20,000 nucleotides of DNA from an uncultured virus (IMG/VR IMGVR_UViG_3300003316_000129). Lineage: Duplodnaviria > Heunggongvirae > Uroviricota > Caudoviricetes. The stretch lies in the IMG/VR virus record IMGVR_UViG_3300003316_000129; one strand, given 5' to 3'. Below are positions 3,541 to 14,309 of the stretch, one piece after another (position 1 is the stretch's first letter; the number at the start of each line of letters is the position of its first letter). Below the pieces are notes generated by a model. It searched no databases. It was not told the origin of the DNA and saw only the letters and a program-made list of their open reading frames with translations. The translations under genes and the position numbers were made by a program.

Positions 3541-6500
3541 ATGAAAAAGATATTATTATTAGTATTCGTCTTAGTTAGCTTTATTGGTAAATCGCAACAA
3601 AGATTTCCAACAGGGTTCCCTACTCAGTTAAATACTGGATGGAATAGATGGGGGTATGCAATGAGTGACAGTGGTCTTATTGTGGCCAATAGAGATACGA
3701 ATTGGTTGGCTAAATTTAGTGGAACAATCGTTTTTAAGCCTTCTAATAAAGAATTTTATTGGTTTGATAGTACTACTCTTACGTGGAAGAGATTTGGATA
3801 TTTAGATACAACCTCATTAAGCAATAGAATAAATCTTAAATTAAACATATCAGACACAACAGGTAAGTGGCTAGAACAATCTACAAGATTAGTAGATACG
3901 ATGTATCGAGTCAATGACTCTACAATAGGATATACGATTAAAGGGAATGTATATACATTCCAAATATTGGGTAGATCATCAGGTGGCGGCGGCGGAAGTG
4001 GTGTTACGAGTGTTGGATTGTCTATGCCATCTGCTTTTAGTGTATCAGGTTCTCCTGTTACTTCAAGCGGCACATTGGCTGTATCTGGCGCGGGAACCAC
4101 ATTGCAATATATGAGAGGGAATGGTACATTGGCCACTACAGATACTACTATGGTGCCTAATTTTTATTTAAAGGTTCGAGGATTGTTATCTGGTACATCG
4201 CCAATAACATTCAATACTACTACGGGCGCAATAGGGATTACAAATGCAAACACTTCTGGTACTAAAGGGGCAGCTACCTTTAGTTCATCTTCATTTTCAG
4301 ACAATGGGTTGGGGTTAATAAGCTTAGTTGATGTTGTTAGTGCTGGAAGCTGCAATAATTGCAATGTAGTTTTTGATAGTAAAGGTAGAGCTACATCATT
4401 TTCAAATGGAAGTGGAGGTGTTGTTATTGATACTGCTGATAATGGACTAACTAAAGTACAAGACACAATTAGGCTTGGAGATGTATCTGGCCCCGGTGCG
4501 CCACTCAAACATAATACATTTATTGATAATAATGGATTTAAGTTTCAATTAGAAGATAGGACTACTGGCGCTACGTTACAAATTGATCCAGCAAATGGGG
4601 CGTATCAGATCGGTAAGAATGTCACCAATGGCGCATATCTTGGTCTTGATACGATTCTGCACCAGTTCACGCTTCAATCTGGAAACGCTGCTTATATAAA
4701 TATGGATGCTTCTATAAACCATTTTAAGGTGGTAATGCAAAGTGGATTTCCATTTCTTGATTTGGACGCTGACAATGGAACGCATAAGATAGGGGATGTT
4801 TCCTCATTTGGAAGCGGGAATAATACATATTTAAATGTTGATGATGCAAATTCTCAGTTCATATTTAGTACGGGCGGAGTAACAAAAGCATTGTTGGATG
4901 CTAACGGTCAATGGAAGTGGCCTGGTTATCCGGCATTAACGGCCCAAATAGACACTACAACATACAAACCAATAGCAATAGATGGTTCTGGTAATGTAGT
5001 GAAAATGGCCGGATGGGCAGGGAGCGGGGGCGGTGGTACTGGTGGTGGGATTGCTTATATATATTCATCTACGGCTCCCACAGGGAATGATACATCTAAG
5101 CTATGGGTTAAGACTCCCGCTATTGCTGGGGTATATGATGTGTACACTCATATTTCTAATGCGCAACCATTATGGCAACGTTTTGGGTGGTTGACTATTG
5201 ATGGTTTTTTTTCGACATTATCCCCTATCAATCTCGCTGGTGCCGGACAATCTAATATGGGGGGCGTATATCCAGGAGGTGATACTTCATGGGTAAACGG
5301 AATTGTAGCATACACAAGCGGGTCGGCTAATTCTGGAATAGATAATCCTACGCATTGGGAGACTGCTCGAATAGGCAAGTCTCCATTCTACTTAGACAAT
5401 AATAATATGGCTTATCAGTTTGCTAAGAACCTAAGAATAAAGGAGGGTCGAATAGTCAGAATAGTTATGACATATCAGGGTGGGGTAGGGTTAAGTGCAT
5501 GGCTATGCGGAAGCCCACATTATCTGCTAGATACATTGCGCAATAGGCTATCAAGATCGGGCATCGATACTTTACAGGCGTTTTTGTGGCATCATGGCGA
5601 AGCGGGTGGATGTACAGGTAACCTATCGGGGGGGTACTATAAGGACATGGCTGATTTTTACGACACGCTTTGCGTCAATACAAATGGATTCTTTCGAAAT
5701 GTGACACAATTTATAGCCGGAGAATTAGGAGGATTAGATGCAGCAAATAGGAATACGGAATGGCCTTTTACATCTGCTAATGGGGCAATAAGAAAGATGA
5801 ATGAAGATGGTAATTTGAATACCGCATCTGTGCCATCCTATAGTCTATCTCGTTGTGATGACACTCACTTCTGTGGGACAGCATTAGATACGATGGGGCT
5901 GCGTATGTATGGGGCGTATAAAGAAATGCCTCATACTGTTGCATATGAAACAAGACAGCTAAGGGGCAACTTCGATACAACATACGAACAGTTAAAGTAT
6001 GATGAATCTAATTTTCTCGAACCTGCTTCTGGCAGTGGGTTTTTGTATAAATACTACACTACTTCATTTGCCTGGCGTGTAGGCGGAATCAATACCCTTG
6101 CAATTAATAATGATGGAACAGTTGGGGTGTCTAATGCAGACGCAATTCCTGGGGTTAATACGAGCGCTGGATTAAAAGTAAATAGCAGGATGTCGTTAGC
6201 AGATGGAACTAACTCGATTATTGCAATAAACTTCAATCCTAATGCAACGGGAGGACTTCAACGAAATGTTATATTCACAAATTATTCATCAAACTGGAAT
6301 TTAAACCCTGAATCGGACAATGTTTTCATGGGTTACAATGCAGGAGCTACAGCCAGTAGGATGTCATTGAACTCTGTAATGATTGGAAGCGATGCAGGTA
6401 ATGGACTTACACCTGCTGGATCAGGGGATTATAATATAGGGATTGGTAAAGGTGTATTCACGAGTAGTGCTGTGGCTGCATGGACGATTGCGATAGGACA

Positions 6501-7422
6501 CTTGAATGGTGCCGGAATGTATGGTGGTGGGAATACATTAATAGGTCACGAAGTTTCTTGTCCTGCTAATATAAGCAATGCTAGTGTATATGGATATACT
6601 GCTGTAGCTGATAGCAGTAATCAGGTCGTGCTAGGAAACTCAGATATAACACAATTGAAAGTTGGGGATAATATCAGATTCAAAGTAAGTGCAACCCCTA
6701 ATAACGGAGATACATGGGTGTATGATAATAGCACACAAGAATTTAAGCCTCAAGCTCTTTCATCTGTAACTACCATATACAATGGTAATGGGACATTGTC
6801 GGGGAATAGAACGGTTACCGGAGGAAGCAATAGTTTGACATTTAATGGTATATCTAATTTCAAGGTTAATGCAAATGTGCTTGCGATCGATAAAAGTACA
6901 GCAACTGCACCCTATTCGTTTGGAGTAATAGGTGCTTCAAATCAATTATGGGTTGGTTATACTCCAACAGCAGCAGTTTATAGTAAAGGAGCGGCAATGA
7001 TCATTGATACCAATAACAATGTGAGTTTGGGAGATGCGATCATACCGACTACAGCCCCTTTGTATAGTGCAGGAGGTTCTGTTTATGCTGATGCATTACA
7101 GTTAGAGGCTAGTATATTCCAGAAAGTACAATCTGTTACTTCTGACATTACAGCTACTTTGTATCAATACTATTTCAGGATAGATGCCACATCCGGTAAT
7201 ATAACCATTACTCTCCCGGCCGCTAGTACTGCGTTTGGGAATAGTATAGGGATAAAGTATGTATTTAAGAGAATAGATAATAGTGCGAATACGGTTACAA
7301 TTCAAAGGGCTGGAACCCCTGGAACGGATACGATAGACGGAGCGGCATCATTCGTATTAAATACTCAGTATGAGGTAAAGAGATTGCAATGTTCTAGTGC
7401 TTCTACATGGGATATTGAATAA
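3541..7422 (+). CDS. Tail fibre/spike-like protein with N-terminal signal peptide and SGNH (sialate O-acetylesterase/SASA-like) esterase domain
   Basis: MKKILLLVFVLVSFIGKS|QQ signal peptide; fibre motif VTSVGLSMPSAFSVSGSPVTSSGTL; poly-Gly linkers; GQSNM (5245), FLWHHGE and DDTHF SGNH blocks; NxxIG-type beta-roll repeats; C-terminal DATSGNITITLPAA..KRIDNSANTVTI..TIDG domain typical of phage fibres. Confidence 0.75.
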   Translation: MKKILLLVFVLVSFIGKSQQRFPTGFPTQLNTGWNRWGYAMSDSGLIVANRDTNWLAKFSGTIVFKPSNKEFYWFDSTTLTWKRFGYLDTTSLSNRINLKLNISDTTGKWLEQSTRLVDTMYRVNDSTIGYTIKGNVYTFQILGRSSGGGGGSGVTSVGLSMPSAFSVSGSPVTSSGTLAVSGAGTTLQYMRGNGTLATTDTTMVPNFYLKVRGLLSGTSPITFNTTTGAIGITNANTSGTKGAATFSSSSFSDNGLGLISLVDVVSAGSCNNCNVVFDSKGRATSFSNGSGGVVIDTADNGLTKVQDTIRLGDVSGPGAPLKHNTFIDNNGFKFQLEDRTTGATLQIDPANGAYQIGKNVTNGAYLGLDTILHQFTLQSGNAAYINMDASINHFKVVMQSGFPFLDLDADNGTHKIGDVSSFGSGNNTYLNVDDANSQFIFSTGGVTKALLDANGQWKWPGYPALTAQIDTTTYKPIAIDGSGNVVKMAGWAGSGGGGTGGGIAYIYSSTAPTGNDTSKLWVKTPAIAGVYDVYTHISNAQPLWQRFGWLTIDGFFSTLSPINLAGAGQSNMGGVYPGGDTSWVNGIVAYTSGSANSGIDNPTHWETARIGKSPFYLDNNNMAYQFAKNLRIKEGRIVRIVMTYQGGVGLSAWLCGSPHYLLDTLRNRLSRSGIDTLQAFLWHHGEAGGCTGNLSGGYYKDMADFYDTLCVNTNGFFRNVTQFIAGELGGLDAANRNTEWPFTSANGAIRKMNEDGNLNTASVPSYSLSRCDDTHFCGTALDTMGLRMYGAYKEMPHTVAYETRQLRGNFDTTYEQLKYDESNFLEPASGSGFLYKYYTTSFAWRVGGINTLAINNDGTVGVSNADAIPGVNTSAGLKVNSRMSLADGTNSIIAINFNPNATGGLQRNVIFTNYSSNWNLNPESDNVFMGYNAGATASRMSLNSVMIGSDAGNGLTPAGSGDYNIGIGKGVFTSSAVAAWTIAIGHLNGAGMYGGGNTLIGHEVSCPANISNASVYGYTAVADSSNQVVLGNSDITQLKVGDNIRFKVSATPNNGDTWVYDNSTQEFKPQALSSVTTIYNGNGTLSGNRTVTGGSNSLTFNGISNFKVNANVLAIDKSTATAPYSFGVIGASNQLWVGYTPTAAVYSKGAAMIIDTNNNVSLGDAIIPTTAPLYSAGGSVYADALQLEASIFQKVQSVTSDITATLYQYYFRIDATSGNITITLPAASTAFGNSIGIKYVFKRIDNSANTVTIQRAGTPGTDTIDGAASFVLNTQYEVKRLQCSSASTWDIE

Positions 7423-9997: not shown

Positions 9998-10195
9998 ATG
10001 AATCTCACAAAATCAATTTTATTCACAGTGCTGTTAGTAGCACTTGCTGTTTTGGCTGTAATGGGGTGGCATTGGACAGATTTGGCTAAAACAAAATTCT
10101 GGTGGACATTTTGGGTTGTAGCTGCAATTGCAGCAATACCCGCATTTATCTTATTGGCATGGTGGTACGGGACTAAACGAAACGGTGATAAATGA
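9998..10195 (+). CDS. Small 2-TM membrane protein
   Basis: Two hydrophobic Trp-rich helices; overlaps the next gene by 4 nt. Confidence 0.65.
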   Translation: MNLTKSILFTVLLVALAVLAVMGWHWTDLAKTKFWWTFWVVAAIAAIPAFILLAWWYGTKRNGDK

Positions 10196-10587
10196 GTTTT
10201 TTATTAAACCAATTGGTTTTGGCATTTTGGAATTATCTTAATTCCATTTTTGACGCCTATAGGATAATGAAAAATAAAACCATTGCGCATGGGGTCAACT
10301 TTGGTGTGTACGGATTAGTTGTTGCCTTGTTATGTATATTATTCCGATATGACATCTGGAATATTATTGTGTTCGGAATCTCTGCCTTTACAAATCGTCA
10401 GTTTACCTTCGATATACCATTAAACCTGCGACGTGACCTAGCATGGGATTATGTAACAAAAGCTGACCCACCGGCAGCATGGTTGGATAGACAAGAGATC
10501 AAATTGTTTGGGCGTGATGGGCGAAAACCAATAATTGTGTACGGTGCAATGTGGATAGTATGCTCAATAATTAAAATATTCATTTGA
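10192..10587 (+). CDS. Membrane protein of unknown function
   Basis: 3-4 hydrophobic segments, FDIPLNLRR motif, abuts the endolysin start. Confidence 0.65.
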   Translation: MSFLLNQLVLAFWNYLNSIFDAYRIMKNKTIAHGVNFGVYGLVVALLCILFRYDIWNIIVFGISAFTNRQFTFDIPLNLRRDLAWDYVTKADPPAAWLDRQEIKLFGRDGRKPIIVYGAMWIVCSIIKIFI

Positions 10588-11187
10588 ATGGTAATTACAT
10601 CTGATATTTTAAAGCAAATTGCCCCAGCAAGTAAAAGAACCGGATTTATTCTATTAGAACCGCTGGCTACTTGGATGAATTATTGGCTCCCGGCTGCCGA
10701 AATAGACACCCCATCAGAGTTATGTCACTTTTTGGCGCAAGCGGCCCATGAGACGGATTCCTTTAACTCTCTGATAGAATATGCCTCTGGGAGCGCATAC
10801 GAAGGCCGCAAAGACCTTGGAAATGTAAATCCAGGGGATGGCGTCAAGTACAAAGGGAGAGGGATATTTCAAACTACGGGGCTTTCTAATTACGTAAGGC
10901 TAGATGGAGTTTTGAATGAGTTTGGAATTAGTTTTGAAAATAACCCCGCATTGCTTGCTGACCCAAAATGGGCTGTTTGGAGTGCTTGTGTTTTTTGGAA
11001 TGACCGGCATCTATCAGATATAGCTAATATGCCAGATGGTACGCCAATATGGGTAAAGAGACTTGATGAGAATTTGACACCATTTCAGTACATCACATGG
11101 AGGATAAATGGCAGTATAAAAACAGTTCCAGATAGAGTTGTTTTTTATAAAAGAGCAAAAGGCATTTTCGCCTCGTTGAATAAATAG
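10588..11187 (+). CDS. Endolysin, glycoside hydrolase family 19 (chitinase-like)
   Basis: HFLAQAAHET, YEGRKDLGN..GDGVKYKGRGIFQTTG and ITWRING motifs of phage GH19 lysins. Confidence 0.9.
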   Translation: MVITSDILKQIAPASKRTGFILLEPLATWMNYWLPAAEIDTPSELCHFLAQAAHETDSFNSLIEYASGSAYEGRKDLGNVNPGDGVKYKGRGIFQTTGLSNYVRLDGVLNEFGISFENNPALLADPKWAVWSACVFWNDRHLSDIANMPDGTPIWVKRLDENLTPFQYITWRINGSIKTVPDRVVFYKRAKGIFASLNK

Positions 11188-11271: not shown

Positions 11272-11305
11272 AAAGCCGTGATATAATGTCACGGCTTTTT
11301 GTTTT
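11272..11305 (+). terminator. Intrinsic terminator between convergent arms (possibly bidirectional)
   Basis: AAAGCCGTGA-tataatg-TCACGGCTTT perfect 10-bp stem followed by TTGTTTT; A-rich 5' flank. Confidence 0.85.
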
Positions 11306-11328: not shown

Positions 11329-11568
11329 TCATTCATCGGTAGCTATATCATAATAGCTGCATTTAATAGAGCCGTCCATATTGAGTATGAAGATTCTATT
11401 TGTTTTTCTATTCTTTAGCCATCCATAACCTTGCAGTTTGTTTTTATGAACGGCTGGGCATCCATATTTAGGGGCGCATCCAGATGCAGCAACAATAATA
11501 ATCATTAGAATGATGAATATTATTACCGCATGTATGGCGCTTCTTCGGTATGAGTGAGGGGTCTGCAT
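11329..11568 (-). CDS. Small putative lipoprotein
   Basis: Hydrophobic stretch then lipobox AASG-C, followed by APKYGCPA; starts 1 nt after the upstream stop. Confidence 0.65.
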   Translation of the reverse strand: MQTPHSYRRSAIHAVIIFIILMIIIVAASGCAPKYGCPAVHKNKLQGYGWLKNRKTNRIFILNMDGSIKCSYYDIATDE

Positions 11569-11569
11569 G

Positions 11570-11740
11570 TTAGTTTATTGTTGATTTTTTATACATTGTC
11601 GTATCACCGGGGCTGCCGTCAATTGTTTCAGCCACTACTTTAAAATAATAGGTAGTCCCTTTATCTGGCACTTTGTTATCTGATTTTTTACAACTAAAGG
11701 CCAAAACGATCAATGTCGTAATGATTAATACCTTCTTCAT
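11570..11740 (-). CDS. 56-aa lipoprotein carrying FN3-like terminal strands (not in ORF track)
   Basis: Hand translation: MKKVLIITTLIVLAFSCKKSDNKVPDKGTTYYFKVVAETIDGSPGDTTMYKKSTIN*; lipobox LAFS-C17; fills the gap between 11746 and 11568 with 5-nt and 1-nt spacers. Confidence 0.85.
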   Translation of the reverse strand: MKKVLIITTLIVLAFSCKKSDNKVPDKGTTYYFKVVAETIDGSPGDTTMYKKSTIN

Positions 11741-11745
11741 AGAGT

Positions 11746-12276
11746 TTATTTTTTAATTTTTAAGGTGTTTACTTTTATGGAATATGTTCTTTCTAACATA
11801 CCATTTTCGGCTGGAATAGAATCAATTGCATGGTATTCCACGCCATCAGTTGAGATAAGGATTTTGTATTGTTTTGCATTTGATACTTCGGCTACTTTAA
11901 AAGAGATCAATGCCTCTTTGTTTCCCATTGGTAGTACATCAAGAGAGAGGAATTTTGCCGGCATTGCGGATAATGTAAGCTCCACCCATCCAAAATCAGT
12001 ATTGCCACAATTAGTCAAACTTTTTGCTTTGATTGTAGCAATAGCAGCAGGCGGCATGAATAATAGATTTGAATTGCCTGGAATTGTCAAATTTACTTCT
12101 GATTGCGCATAAGAAACTTTAATAACGCTTTCGCATGATTGTTTGTTAGTCACAAGCACCGACGTATTGACCCATTCCAATTTTACTGAATTGTTTTCAG
12201 GGTATTGCCCTCCATTTTGGGCGATTGCTCCAAAGATCAAAAAGGTTCCCAATAGGGAAAGAATTAAATGTTTCAT
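11746..12276 (-). CDS. Secreted protein with truncated LPVxF-type FN3/Ig-like domain
   Basis: SPI signal ending AIA|Q; Cys48/Cys90 pair; MPAKFLSL..ALISFKVAEVSN..YKILISTDGVEY..I..IPA..RTYS resembles the domain preceding the T9SS CTD in Chitinophagaceae/Cytophagales proteins. Confidence 0.75.
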   Translation of the reverse strand: MKHLILSLLGTFLIFGAIAQNGGQYPENNSVKLEWVNTSVLVTNKQSCESVIKVSYAQSEVNLTIPGNSNLLFMPPAAIATIKAKSLTNCGNTDFGWVELTLSAMPAKFLSLDVLPMGNKEALISFKVAEVSNAKQYKILISTDGVEYHAIDSIPAENGMLERTYSIKVNTLKIKK

Positions 12277-12362
12277 TTTATTGTTTTATAGATTAAAAAT
12301 TGATTGCTTTTTTTAGGTATAAAAAAGAGTGGCGGTATGCTAGACCCACCCCAACCACTCAT
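12273..12362 (-). CDS. Putative 29-aa leader peptide
   Basis: MSGWGGSSIPPLFFIPKKSNQFLIYKTIK*; its TGA overlaps the ATG of 12276 (ATGA); it runs through a terminator-like hairpin. Confidence 0.35.
   Translation of the reverse strand: MSGWGGSSIPPLFFIPKKSNQFLIYKTIK
12321..12360 (-). terminator. Terminator/attenuator-like hairpin
   Basis: Minus strand GAGTGG-ttggGGTGggtctagcaTACCg-CCACTC-TTTTTT. Confidence 0.55.
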
Positions 12363-13530: not shown

Positions 13531-13782
13531 TTAGGTTTTTGTATAGTCTTGTAATCGTTCAATTTCATTTCTTAGCATAGTCGCCGTGTACATGTCGCCT
13601 TCGCTTTCGCACACGTTTGCTGCATTATTGGCTAAATCAAAAAGTGTTTTAAGTTGTTCCATTTGCCATTCTGCACCAGCTTTAAAGGAATGGAACTTTG
13701 CTTCAGTAATGGTTTTTGGTTTTGGCTGTCCATATTTAACATGATAATGTGCCGCGCCATCTACTGTTTGGTTTACTATCAT
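13531..13782 (-). CDS. Hypothetical phage protein
   Basis: SFKAGAEWQ motif common in small phage proteins; overlaps the sigma gene stop. Confidence 0.7.
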   Translation of the reverse strand: MIVNQTVDGAAHYHVKYGQPKPKTITEAKFHSFKAGAEWQMEQLKTLFDLANNAANVCESEGDMYTATMLRNEIERLQDYTKT

Positions 13783-14309
13783 TTTACTTTTAGTTTAGTT
13801 TTAAATGAATTTAATACCCTGCGCAATTGAGTGTACACGGTATCTTTTGAAATATTCAATCTAAGCGCTATTTCTTTTGGACTTAATTGTTCAAAATAAG
13901 CCAATTTGAATATGCGTTTTCGGTCTTCCGGCAATTGCTCAATTGCTACATGTATAGCCTCGATCAATTCGGTTTTTATAGAATATTCATAGATCAATAA
14001 GGTATCATCTTCCATATGTTTGGCAAACTCATTAAAACGTCTTTGCTTTCTATCCCTGTGTTTAATATAATTTAGTGCTTTATTTCTTGCTGTAACATAC
14101 AAAAATGCCTGAATTTCTCCATTGCTATTAAATAGGGTGCATCTTGCAAACAATGCCTGGAATGCCATTAAAACAATGTCTTCTGCCTCTTGTTTGTTAT
14201 TCAGTATCTTATCCACGAAATACAATAATTTGGCGTAGTATTCATTGAATACTATTCGGAATGCCCGTTCGCTTCCATTTTTAAATTCATAGATAAGATC
14301 AGATTCCAT
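13779..14309 (-). CDS. ECF RNA polymerase sigma-70 factor, Bacteroidota type
   Basis: Region 2: GSERAFRIVFNEYY..EAEDIV..F..L..FLYVTARNKALNYIKH. Region 4: IEQLPEDRKRIFKL..EQLSPKEIALRLNISKDTVYTQLRR. Confidence 0.9.
   Translation of the reverse strand: MESDLIYEFKNGSERAFRIVFNEYYAKLLYFVDKILNNKQEAEDIVLMAFQALFARCTLFNSNGEIQAFLYVTARNKALNYIKHRDRKQRRFNEFAKHMEDDTLLIYEYSIKTELIEAIHVAIEQLPEDRKRIFKLAYFEQLSPKEIALRLNISKDTVYTQLRRVLNSFKTKLKVK

What the first reader, a model, noticed from the sequence alone, without database searches (positions are those of the whole stretch)
11570..12276. Apparently split FN3/Ig-like domain: secreted protein plus a lipoprotein donating the missing strands (candidate strand-complementation surface-display system)
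Seen: the 176-aa SPI protein ends with MPAKFLSLDV..ALISFKVAEVSNAKQYKILISTDGVEYHAIDSIPA..RTYSIKV and then stops. The next gene, 5 nt downstream and missed by the ORF track, is a 56-aa lipoprotein (LAFS-CKKSD) whose only mature content is a short linker plus GTTYYFKVVAETIDGSPGDTTMYK. Known: many Chitinophagaceae/Cytophagales T9SS cargo proteins carry a domain of approximate consensus LPVxLxxF..V.L.W.TASE.N...F.VERS.DG..F..IG.V.A....YSF.D......YYRLK.VD.DG...YS before the CTD. K/D-rich residues after the lipid Cys resemble the Bacteroidota lipoprotein surface-export signal. Inference: gene 1 holds the first strands and gene 2 holds the final YYRLKxVDxDG hairpin in the correct order, with its own intact lipoprotein signal. 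That looks like a purposeful split rather than decay. The lipoprotein could complete the fold and tether the partner's disulfide-bonded N-domain to the membrane, or capture host proteins with this domain. Possible roles are superinfection exclusion, receptor masking or T9SS interference.
Basis: partly seen in the sequence, partly recalled or inferred. Interest (0 to 1): 0.85.

Follow-up and report, generated by a model that had tools for sequence, protein, structure and literature searches.

The report
Two-gene split FN3 lipoprotein anchor
An uncultured Bacteroidota phage makes a secreted protein whose last small beta-sandwich domain stops two strands short, and the next gene is a tiny lipoprotein carrying just those two strands, so the pair probably snaps together to tether the protein to a membrane.

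Summary
On the minus strand lie a 176-aa secreted protein (12276..11746) and, 5 nt later, a 56-aa lipoprotein (11740..11570). The core reading, a purposeful split, is well supported by comparison. The protein's C-terminal domain is homologous to FN3-type domains but has only five strands. The lipoprotein's mature part matches the FN3 F-G hairpin. The lipoprotein follows the gene in the window and in 13 of 13 related loci, with one of each per phage genome. The truncated domain sits at the extreme C-terminus of 54 of 59 small proteins, which have varied N-terminal parts. A conserved lineage fuses hairpin and protein in one chain. Physical complementation was not shown. It is unclear whether the protein's last strand is E or F. 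The published surface-export signal occurs in 1 of 73 lipoproteins, so a periplasm-facing tether is likelier than surface display. The closest catalogued thing is NCBIfam NF058595, the untested one-chain "lipo-invert" anchor, which this family does not match. Biological role is unknown. Verdict: a new two-gene variant of strand-complementation anchoring, interest about 0.65.

The parts
11746..12276 (-). Gene for the 176-aa secreted two-domain protein (stop codon included)
   Evidence: ORF found. 93 homologues. AlphaFold model with mean pLDDT 83.
12220..12276 (-). Signal peptide, residues 1-19, with predicted SPI cleavage at AIA|Q
   Evidence: Read directly from the sequence. A19, Q20, N21, G22 are nearly invariant and G23, Q24 invariant. 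Cleavage is inferred.
11977..12219 (-). N-terminal motif QNGGQYPENN followed by a complete Ig-like N-domain (residues 20-100)
   Evidence: pLDDT is 90-97 over residues 31-70. VIA-align gives Z 7-9.3 over model residues 28-104, aligning 68-80 residues with Ig/FN3-like domains.
11749..11976 (-). C-terminal truncated FN3-type domain (residues 101-176), with five strands and then the stop codon
   Evidence: DSSP strands at 107-118, 121-131, 136-141, 149-155 and 161-170. A profile of the domain finds 5389 proteins, including multi-FN3 proteins. hhalign to FN3 gives 95.5% probability.
11570..11740 (-). Gene for the 56-aa lipoprotein (stop codon included)
   Evidence: ORF found. 74 homologues. Lies downstream of the 176-aa gene in the window and in 13 of 13 related loci.
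11690..11740 (-). Lipoprotein signal peptide and lipobox LAFSC (residues 1-17, Cys17)
   Evidence: Read from the sequence. Cys17 is invariant and K18 nearly invariant in 70 aligned homologues.
11573..11647 (-). Beta-hairpin GTTYYFKVVAETIDG...MYKKSTIN (residues 32-56), the FN3 F-G equivalent
   Evidence: The hairpin profile matches the F strand (...GTTYYFRV...) of complete FN3 domains. It starts 1-5 residues before the point where the C-domain profile would end in 33 of 40 cases.
11329..11568 (-). Third cassette gene: 79-aa lipoprotein-like protein (N-terminal ...TPHSYRRSAIH, lipobox AASGC, four Cys in the whole protein, three after the lipobox Cys)
   Evidence: ORF found. Homologues with the same N-terminal motif lie next to the pair in L001/L012, L002, L007-L010 and L018, and a diverged form in L016/L017. 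No family match.
11272..11298 (.). Bidirectional terminator-like hairpin between the cassette and the convergent endolysin gene
   Evidence: 12-pair stem on the + strand and 10 pairs on the - strand, followed by T-rich tails.
12329..12362 (-). Terminator-like stem-loop followed by UUUUUU, upstream of the 176-aa gene
   Evidence: Fold. Not picked up by the consensus scan because the loop is longer than 8. The reading that the cassette is its own transcription unit is inference.

Best explanation
The pair is one FN3-type beta-sandwich domain split between two genes and used as a non-covalent membrane anchor. Both products are exported by Sec. The 176-aa protein is cut after AIA. It consists of a conserved N-terminal motif, a complete Ig-like domain, and a C-terminal FN3-type domain that stops after five strands, most likely A, B, C, C' and E. 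The 56-aa product is lipidated at Cys17. It then consists only of a lipid, a 14-residue K/S/D-rich linker and an amphipathic beta-hairpin that is the F-G hairpin of the same domain type. The hairpin inserts beside strand C of the truncated domain, completes the sandwich, and so ties the protein to a membrane. Because the published surface-export signal is missing, the tether most likely faces the periplasm. Shown: the anatomy, the homology, the conserved pairing and the fusions. Inferred: the binding itself, the strand assignment, the membrane, and the role of the tethered Ig-like domain. My guess for that role is binding of an envelope component during lytic infection.
For: 1. Truncated fold. 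The AlphaFold model has five strands in residues 107-170 at pLDDT about 87-90, and the chain then ends.
2. Homology of the first half. A 19-sequence profile of the C-domain finds 5389 proteins at E<=1e-3. Pfam fn3 scores above its cut-off in 3 of 16 hits scanned. hhalign to 16 FN3 domains gives 95.5% probability, E 1.5e-8. In the nearest complete domains the alignment runs without gaps to strand E, and an F-G hairpin follows; this holds for 26 of 40 listed alignments from 11 proteins.
3. Homology of the second half. The best matches of the lipoprotein hairpin profile in complete FN3 domains are mostly F strands of the form ...GTTYYFRV.... In 33 of 40 cases they start 1-5 residues before the projected end of the C-domain profile.
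4. Pairing. A hairpin lipoprotein lies downstream on the same strand in the window and in 13 of 13 related loci with downstream DNA. It is absent from 8 of 8 loci whose distant relative lacks this C-domain. There is exactly one C-domain and one hairpin gene in each of two phage genomes that are 100% and 93% complete. 29 of 74 lipoprotein clusters share a longest-contig length with a cluster of the 176-aa family.
5. Modularity. The truncated domain ends within 7 residues of the C-terminus in 54 of 59 small proteins, and these have varied N-terminal parts.
6. Fusions. P0134, P0329 and P0330 (14, 3 and 1 members, on contigs up to 75 kb) have lipobox, hairpin, N-domain and C-domain in one chain. 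P0121 has the C-domain, a 12-residue link and the hairpin.
7. Selection. Hairpin codons show 5 synonymous and 0 non-synonymous changes between L002 and L007.
Against: No prediction or measurement of binding exists. AlphaFold on the natural fused protein P0134 gave pLDDT 64 for the first hairpin strand and about 39 for residues 41-60, so there was no confident docking. The alignment was only three distinct sequences deep over the hairpin. hhalign against classical FN3, and 9 of 40 HMMER alignments, put the protein's own last strand on strand F, with strand E missing. If that is right, the lipoprotein's F strand would be redundant and the geometry differs. The 16 FN3 domains used were picked through hairpin matches, so they are biased. 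Individual hairpin matches in FN3 domains are weak, at 2-14 bits. No single sequence of the C-domain reaches any Pfam FN3 model at E<=1. P0121 is a single, N-terminally truncated record. The neighbours of the proteins carrying other cargo could not be fetched.
Confidence: 0.6

Rival explanations
1. The two proteins descend from a gene fission but no longer bind each other. Alternatively the hairpin augments some other sheet, such as a host protein or the 79-aa neighbour. On this view they stay together only as members of one envelope-directed cassette.
For: No docking was seen in the fused form. A third secreted partner is conserved in the cassette. The strand assignment is ambiguous.
Against: A mature peptide consisting of a linker and a 25-residue amphipathic hairpin cannot fold alone, and the only matching incomplete domain is encoded next door. 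There is a one-to-one correspondence per genome. The lipoprotein is absent where the C-domain is absent. Fusions of exactly these two parts recur.
Confidence: 0.15
2. The cassette is a lysis accessory of spanin type. On this view an outer-membrane lipoprotein is bound by the C-terminus of a periplasmic or inner-membrane partner, possibly with the 79-aa protein, to help break the outer membrane. This is a rival about role and could coexist with strand complementation.
For: The cassette converges on the endolysin and a holin-like gene in the window and in the L002 lineage. No spanin is evident beside the endolysin. There are two small lipoproteins. The relatives look virulent: no integrase was found in 2 of 2 near-complete genomes and no prophage copy was found in the scan of the GTDB species-representative genome contigs.
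Against: The cassette is on the opposite strand to the lysis genes and is bracketed by terminator-like hairpins. The 176-aa protein is all-beta with no coiled coil. In L001 the pair lies beside a sigma-factor gene instead. The fused lineage has no second membrane anchor.
Confidence: 0.12
3. The C-terminal domain is a sorting tag recognised by a host secretion system (T9SS-like C-terminal domain), and the lipoprotein is unrelated to it.
For: The domain lies at the extreme C-terminus of varied secreted cargo. Structural neighbours of the Atlas model are often T9SS cargo, with TM 0.41-0.57. Distant 209-aa relatives carry another C-terminal domain instead.
Against: No Por_Secre_tail or other T9SS model matches at E<=1. 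This does not explain the conserved adjacent hairpin, its F-G homology or the fusions.
Confidence: 0.08
4. The pair is a decayed or mis-assembled single gene.
For: One record (P0121) has the two halves in one frame.
Against: 93 and 74 homologue clusters from many samples keep the stop codon, the second start, an intact lipobox and their lengths. Selection is purifying.
Confidence: 0.02

Closest known systems
NCBIfam NF058595 'invert_tail' (lipo-invert putative C-terminal anchoring domain; 113 positions, cut-off 37 bits)
   Same: As described in earlier notes of this scan (e1-3069374 and others), which I did not check: a last Ig-like domain of an exported protein whose final strands lie behind a lipoprotein-type lipidation site. 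Processing would leave the cargo held by a lipidated strand donor. That is the same principle proposed here.
   Different: NF058595 is one polypeptide with an internal two-helix hairpin and lipobox. Here there are two genes, and the second has its own ordinary lipoprotein signal. The model matches none of the family's proteins tested at E<=10 and neither of the two phage genomes that carry the pair (G001, G002). The term 'lipo-invert' occurs in 0 papers of the library, so that anchor is itself untested.
Donor-strand complementation and exchange in chaperone-usher pili (recalled knowledge)
   Same: An incomplete Ig-like fold is completed by a strand or strands from another polypeptide.
   Different: In pili one strand (G) is donated by a chaperone or by the next pilin, and the result is a polymer. 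Here two strands come from a lipopeptide, there is no chaperone or usher, the stoichiometry is presumably 1:1, and the purpose is anchoring.
Type V pili of Bacteroidota (FimA/Mfa1; seen only as search listing and abstracts, e.g. PMC4789730, PMC5789003)
   Same: Same phylum, lipoprotein precursors, and strand exchange between subunits.
   Different: Pilins are large lipoproteins that are cleaved and polymerise. Here the lipoprotein is only a hairpin, and the partner is an SPI-type secreted protein. No pilin family matched.
FN3 domains of the 'ERS.DG' type in T9SS cargo of Bacteroidota
   Same: These are the nearest complete homologues. They share the A-strand motif, the C-C' motif and the E-strand YS.-type motif, and an F-G hairpin of the lipoprotein's type follows.
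   Different: They are complete single-chain domains inside larger proteins. Here the chain stops after strand E.
Two-component phage spanins (Rz/Rz1 type; recalled knowledge)
   Same: A small lipoprotein gene lies directly after the gene of a partner that would bind it through its C-terminus, close to the endolysin.
   Different: The partner is all-beta with a cleavable-looking signal and no coiled coil. The cassette is on the opposite strand to the lysis genes.

Membership tests
Fibronectin type III (Pfam PF00041) | Match to the Pfam model above its gathering score | tested here: not met
   No fn3 hit at E<=1 for the whole protein or for the C-domain alone.
Fibronectin type III (Pfam PF00041) | Profile-level homology to bona fide FN3 domains | tested here: met
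   The C-domain profile hits multi-FN3 proteins. Of these, P0105, P0148 and P0172 carry 9, 5 and 7 Pfam fn3 stretches. hhalign gives 95.5% probability, E 1.5e-8.
Fibronectin type III (Pfam PF00041) | Seven-strand sandwich (A, B, C, C', E, F, G) in one chain | tested here: not met
   Only five strands are modelled before the stop codon. The F-G equivalent is in the next gene.
NCBIfam NF058595 invert_tail (lipo-invert anchor) | HMM score of at least 37 bits | tested here: not met
   No hit at E<=10 in 15 proteins of the family, including the fusions, and none at E<=1 in the window's proteins. No hit in 4 of 4 phage records either.
NCBIfam NF058595 invert_tail (lipo-invert anchor) | Single polypeptide with an internal membrane hairpin and lipobox inside the last Ig-like domain (feature taken from earlier notes, unchecked) | tested here: not met
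   There are two separate genes with a stop codon, a 5-nt spacer and a normal N-terminal lipoprotein signal. No such tail was found in any of the top-150 hits of 230 residues or more.
Donor-strand complementation systems (pili) | Incomplete Ig-like fold plus a complementing strand on another chain | tested here: inconclusive
   The incomplete fold and the matching strands are shown by model and homology. The cis model of the fused form is not confident.
Donor-strand complementation systems (pili) | Dedicated chaperone/usher or polymerising subunits | tested here: not met
   No such families were found among the window's ORFs scanned. There is one C-domain and one hairpin per genome.
Surface-exposed Bacteroidota lipoproteins (LES) | K-(D/E)2 or Q-A-(D/E)2 just after the lipidated Cys (abstract of PMC5080379) | tested here: not met
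   The motif occurs in 1 of 73 lipoproteins. The consensus is C-K-K-S-T.
T9SS C-terminal sorting domain (PF18962 / TIGR04183) | HMM match at the extreme C-terminus | tested here: not met
   No hit at E<=1. Only loose structural neighbours were found.
Two-component spanin | i-spanin with an N-terminal membrane helix and a coiled-coil periplasmic domain | tested here: not met
   The model is all-beta apart from the signal helix. The invariant AxA|Q-type site suggests cleavage.
Two-component spanin | Small outer-membrane lipoprotein encoded with its partner beside the lysis genes | tested here: inconclusive
   A small lipoprotein lies directly after its partner, near the endolysin, but on the opposite strand. 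In L001 the pair lies beside a sigma-factor gene.

The most novel reading that the evidence does not exclude
Uncultured Bacteroidota phages carry a modular, natural tag-and-catcher system. The tag is a roughly 70-residue FN3 domain truncated after strand E, placed at the C-terminus of varied secreted cargo (an Ig-like binder, an esterase, larger unknown domains). The catcher is a cognate lipopeptide of about 25 structured residues that supplies strands F and G. This would be the free-standing two-gene form of the untested 'lipo-invert' anchor. It would give a direct handle to test how that anchor works, and a minimal non-covalent membrane-tethering pair for engineering.
Probability: 0.5. Interest if true: 0.8.

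Novelty: new variant of a known kind. Interest (0 to 1): 0.65.

Why it matters
If the hairpin really completes the domain, this is a very small natural system for hanging a secreted protein on a membrane by rebuilding one domain from two chains. It would show that the principle known from pili, and proposed for the catalogued but untested lipo-invert tails, also exists as two ordinary genes. That makes it easy to test with a peptide and a 76-residue domain. It would also show how phages of Bacteroidota place their own proteins in the host envelope. The same tag sits on several unrelated cargo domains, which suggests a general docking device and not a one-off. The biological pay-off (exclusion of other phages, envelope remodelling or lysis) is still unknown.

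Tried and rejected
I stopped that step. As a result, the unbiased profile-profile test of hairpin against complete domain was not done.
- The search for related loci with alignments A3, A5 and A12 failed because no stretch was conserved enough.

**Searches that found nothing**
- AlphaFold of the natural fused protein P0134 gave no confident docking of the hairpin, so it supports nothing either way.
- I could not fetch the DNA around proteins with other cargo or around the fused form. Viral scans with P0134, P0162, P0202, P0231 and P0132 found nothing.
- A DNA pattern for EAVDNDG in viral contigs gave 35 loci. Only one (L043, the contig of L002) is a true hairpin lipoprotein.
- Genome-contig scans found no relative with A2. 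A C-domain motif pattern gave one unrelated Planctomycetales discoidin-type protein.

**Ideas that were not supported**
- The deeper hairpin HMM found no hit next to the C-domain matches that reach the last strand (0 of 46). Short-profile power is low.
- MAFFT placed the lipoproteins on the wrong part of the fused protein, so they were left out of the folding alignment.
- My impression that the 209-aa distant relatives end in a T9SS tail was not borne out by Pfam or NCBIfam.
- Phage-collection tblastn with the 176-aa protein found no match.
- Literature searches for a described split FN3 with a lipoprotein found none.

Full report
**What is there**

On the minus strand, ORF 12276..11746 encodes a 176-aa protein with a signal peptide ending GAIA|QNGGQ. 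After 5 nt, ORF 11740..11570 encodes a 56-aa lipoprotein (lipobox LAFSC, then KKSD...). ORF 11568..11329 encodes a further 79-aa lipoprotein-like protein.

The setting is a phage. On the plus strand a 1293-aa protein carries a SASA acetylesterase domain, and a membrane protein and a GH19-type endolysin (phrog_181, E 1e-36) end at 11187, converging on the cassette. The minus strand carries an ECF-type sigma factor and small genes. No whole genome is held for the window. None of the three small proteins matches Pfam, PHROGs or NCBIfam.

A bidirectional terminator-like hairpin lies at 11272-11298. A stem-loop followed by a U-run lies upstream of the 176-aa gene. The cassette therefore may be its own transcription unit; this is inference.

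**Both genes are real and conserved**

- The 176-aa protein has 93 homologues at E<=0.01 among 137 candidates, and 89 of the 93 are 153-193 aa long.
- In an alignment of 27 sequences, 25 of the 26 homologues end within about a dozen residues after the last strand. The exception, P0023, has an unrelated extension.
- The lipoprotein has 74 homologues of 42-71 aa. All share the same plan: signal, Cys, usually KK, a variable linker of 10-20 residues, then a conserved hairpin with consensus ..KYYF.IEAVDNDG...T.T.YK.ITV..
- Between L002 and L007 the lipoprotein gene has 12 synonymous and 4 non-synonymous codon differences. In the hairpin codons 27-53 the counts are 5 and 0.

**The fold**

With a 93-sequence alignment, AlphaFold gives mean pLDDT 83 and pTM 0.54. 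Residues 28-104 form a complete Ig-like sandwich, with VIA-align Z 7-9.3 over 68-80 aligned residues against many Ig/FN3-like domains. That is a common fold and says nothing about function. Residues 107-170 form only five strands, at pLDDT about 87-90, and the chain then ends.

**Homology of the two halves**

A 19-sequence profile of the C-domain (A4) was run over 1.84 billion representatives. It found 5389 proteins at E<=1e-3, 191 at 1e-10 and 5 at 1e-30. Many are giant proteins with 5-22 matched stretches.

Of 16 hits scanned with Pfam, three (P0105, P0148, P0172) have 9, 5 and 7 fn3 stretches above the cut-off. Three carry a Por_Secre_tail above the cut-off (P0169, P0180, P0161), and two more fall just below it. 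hhalign of A4 against 16 FN3 domains gives 95.5% probability, E 1.5e-8.

A small HMM of the lipoprotein hairpin, searched over the same hits, matches F strands of the form ...GTTYYFRV.... Of 350 C-domain matches, 40 had a hairpin match nearby. In 33 of those 40 it begins 1-5 residues before the point where the C-domain profile would end. The single matches are weak, at 2-14 bits.

**Which strand is the last one?**

This is not settled. Of the 40 best C-domain matches that reach the last strand inside longer proteins:

- 26 (from 11 proteins) align it without gaps to strand E of the nearest complete domains. In these, an F-G hairpin much like the lipoprotein's follows; examples are P0225 and P0209.
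- 9 (from 6 proteins, classical FN3) align it to strand F, treating E as an insertion.
- 5 are unclear.

hhalign also chose F, but its FN3 set had been picked through hairpin matches. The spacing from the S.DG motif to the Tyr is 23 residues both in the C-domain and in strand E of P0225, read. I take E as the more likely assignment, at about three in four.

**Pairing**

- In the window and in all 13 related loci that include downstream DNA (L001, L002, L007-L017, about nine distinct lineages), a hairpin lipoprotein lies downstream on the same strand. It is directly adjacent in most, about 240 nt downstream in L011, and behind one inserted gene in L001/L012. L018 ends inside the gene.
- Eight loci have a distant 209-248-aa relative that shares only the N-domain and ends differently. 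None of them has such a lipoprotein.
- Two relatives' genomes, 100% and 93% complete, each have exactly one C-domain and one hairpin gene. A complete 121-kb genome with the 209-aa relative has neither.
- 29 of 74 lipoprotein clusters share their longest-contig length with a cluster of the 176-aa family. This is an indirect sign of shared contigs.

**A modular tag, and fusions**

Among the 59 hits shorter than 400 aa, the C-domain match ends within 7 residues of the C-terminus in 54. The N-terminal parts differ:

- the QNGGQ-type Ig domain in most;
- a second family that starts ..HHL.A.G.C;
- an esterase-like protein, P0202 (PHB-depolymerase-type hits, below cut-offs);
- two proteins of about 365 aa, and others with no family match.

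All are from metagenomic contigs of 1.8-120 kb.

Three clusters (P0134 with 14 members on contigs up to 75 kb, P0329 with 3, P0330 with 1) are single chains. Each has a lipobox, a linker, a nearly invariant hairpin, then the NGNGGQ motif, the N-domain and the C-domain. One record, P0121 (single and N-terminally truncated), has the C-domain, a 12-residue link and the hairpin with no signal between them.

**What argues against, or is missing**

- AlphaFold on the fused P0134 gave mean pLDDT 74.5. The first hairpin strand (33-38) scored about 64, and residues 41-60 about 39. The model does not show docking. The alignment over the hairpin was shallow, and joining the end of strand G to the start of the N-domain may be strained within one chain (inference).
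- The surface-export signal of Bacteroidota lipoproteins is K-(D/E)2 or Q-A-(D/E)2 (abstract of PMC5080379). It occurs in 1 of 73 lipoproteins; the consensus is C-K-K-S-T. Surface display is therefore not supported.

**Relation to what is known**

It pointed to NCBIfam NF058595, 'invert_tail', the lipo-invert putative C-terminal anchor. Other notes describe that anchor as an Ig-like domain interrupted by a membrane hairpin with an internal lipobox. These are unchecked AI notes.

I tested the model. It exists (113 positions, cut-off 37 bits) but matches none of 15 family proteins at E<=10 and none of 4 phage records. The window's own proteins gave no hit at E<=1. The term lipo-invert occurs in 0 papers of the library. 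Searches for a described split FN3 with a lipoprotein found only pilus literature. The pair is therefore best filed as a two-gene variant that works like the lipo-invert idea and like donor-strand complementation, without being a member of either family.

**Role**

The role is unknown. The relatives look virulent: no tyrosine integrase was found in 2 of 2 near-complete genomes, and no copy was found in the scan of the GTDB species-representative genome contigs. The Atlas places related clusters in Bacteroidota. The cassette's position opposite the endolysin recalls both moron-type lipoprotein genes and spanins (recalled knowledge). The all-beta partner, and the pair's different neighbourhood in L001, speak against a canonical spanin.

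My committed reading is that the hairpin lipopeptide completes the truncated FN3 in the periplasm, and so tethers the Ig-like N-domain to a membrane during infection. Confidence is 0.6 for the complementation and much lower for any particular role.

Noticed in passing
window 11329-11568 (-): A 79-aa lipoprotein-like protein with a long basic N-terminus (..TPHSYRRSAIH), lipobox AASGC and a small Cys-rich mature part. It travels with the pair, upstream or downstream of it, in most related loci (L001/L012, L002, L007-L010, L018, with a diverged form in L016/L017). It has no family match. It could be a third component of the complex.
   Followed up: partly
window 12163-12219 (-), residues 20-38 of the 176-aa protein: The most conserved part of the whole family is the stretch right after the signal peptide (AQNGGQY.ENN..KLE). 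It is modelled with low confidence. It is kept as SNGNGGQ.NENN even in the fused lineage, where no signal cleavage would occur there. This suggests a binding or recognition motif and not only a cleavage site.
   Followed up: partly
L003-L006, L019-L022 (e.g. L004 3001-3630): Distant 209-248-aa relatives share only the N-terminal motif and the Ig-like domain (about 33% identity). They end in a different domain of about 100 aa that looked T9SS-tail-like by eye but matched no Pfam or NCBIfam model. No hairpin lipoprotein lies nearby.
   Followed up: partly
window 3541-7422 (+): A 1293-aa protein with a SASA sialate/carbohydrate acetylesterase domain (PF03629, E 9.5e-10, residues 568-793). It is probably a tail fibre or spike with receptor-modifying activity.
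   Followed up: no
window 10192-11187 (+): A 131-aa membrane protein is directly followed by a GH19-type endolysin (phrog_181, E 1e-36). No spanin-like gene follows on that strand before the terminator at 11272-11298.
   Followed up: partly
window 13779-14309 (-): A phage-encoded ECF-type sigma factor (Sigma70_r4_2 E 7e-15, Sigma70_r2 E 1e-8). A similar gene lies next to the pair in L001 (4235-4717).
   Followed up: no
P0135 (200 aa), P0187, P0238: A few family members have 17-23 extra residues after the C-domain match, or a variant last strand. I did not examine whether these tails replace the missing strands.
   Followed up: no
L060 928-3807: The C-C' motif of the domain (..YN.Q.S.DGK.FKT..) also occurs in a Planctomycetales discoidin-type domain. 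The weak Pfam F5_F8_type_C hits to the C-domain (E 0.07) reflect this shared hairpin motif, so that motif alone is not diagnostic of FN3.
   Followed up: partly
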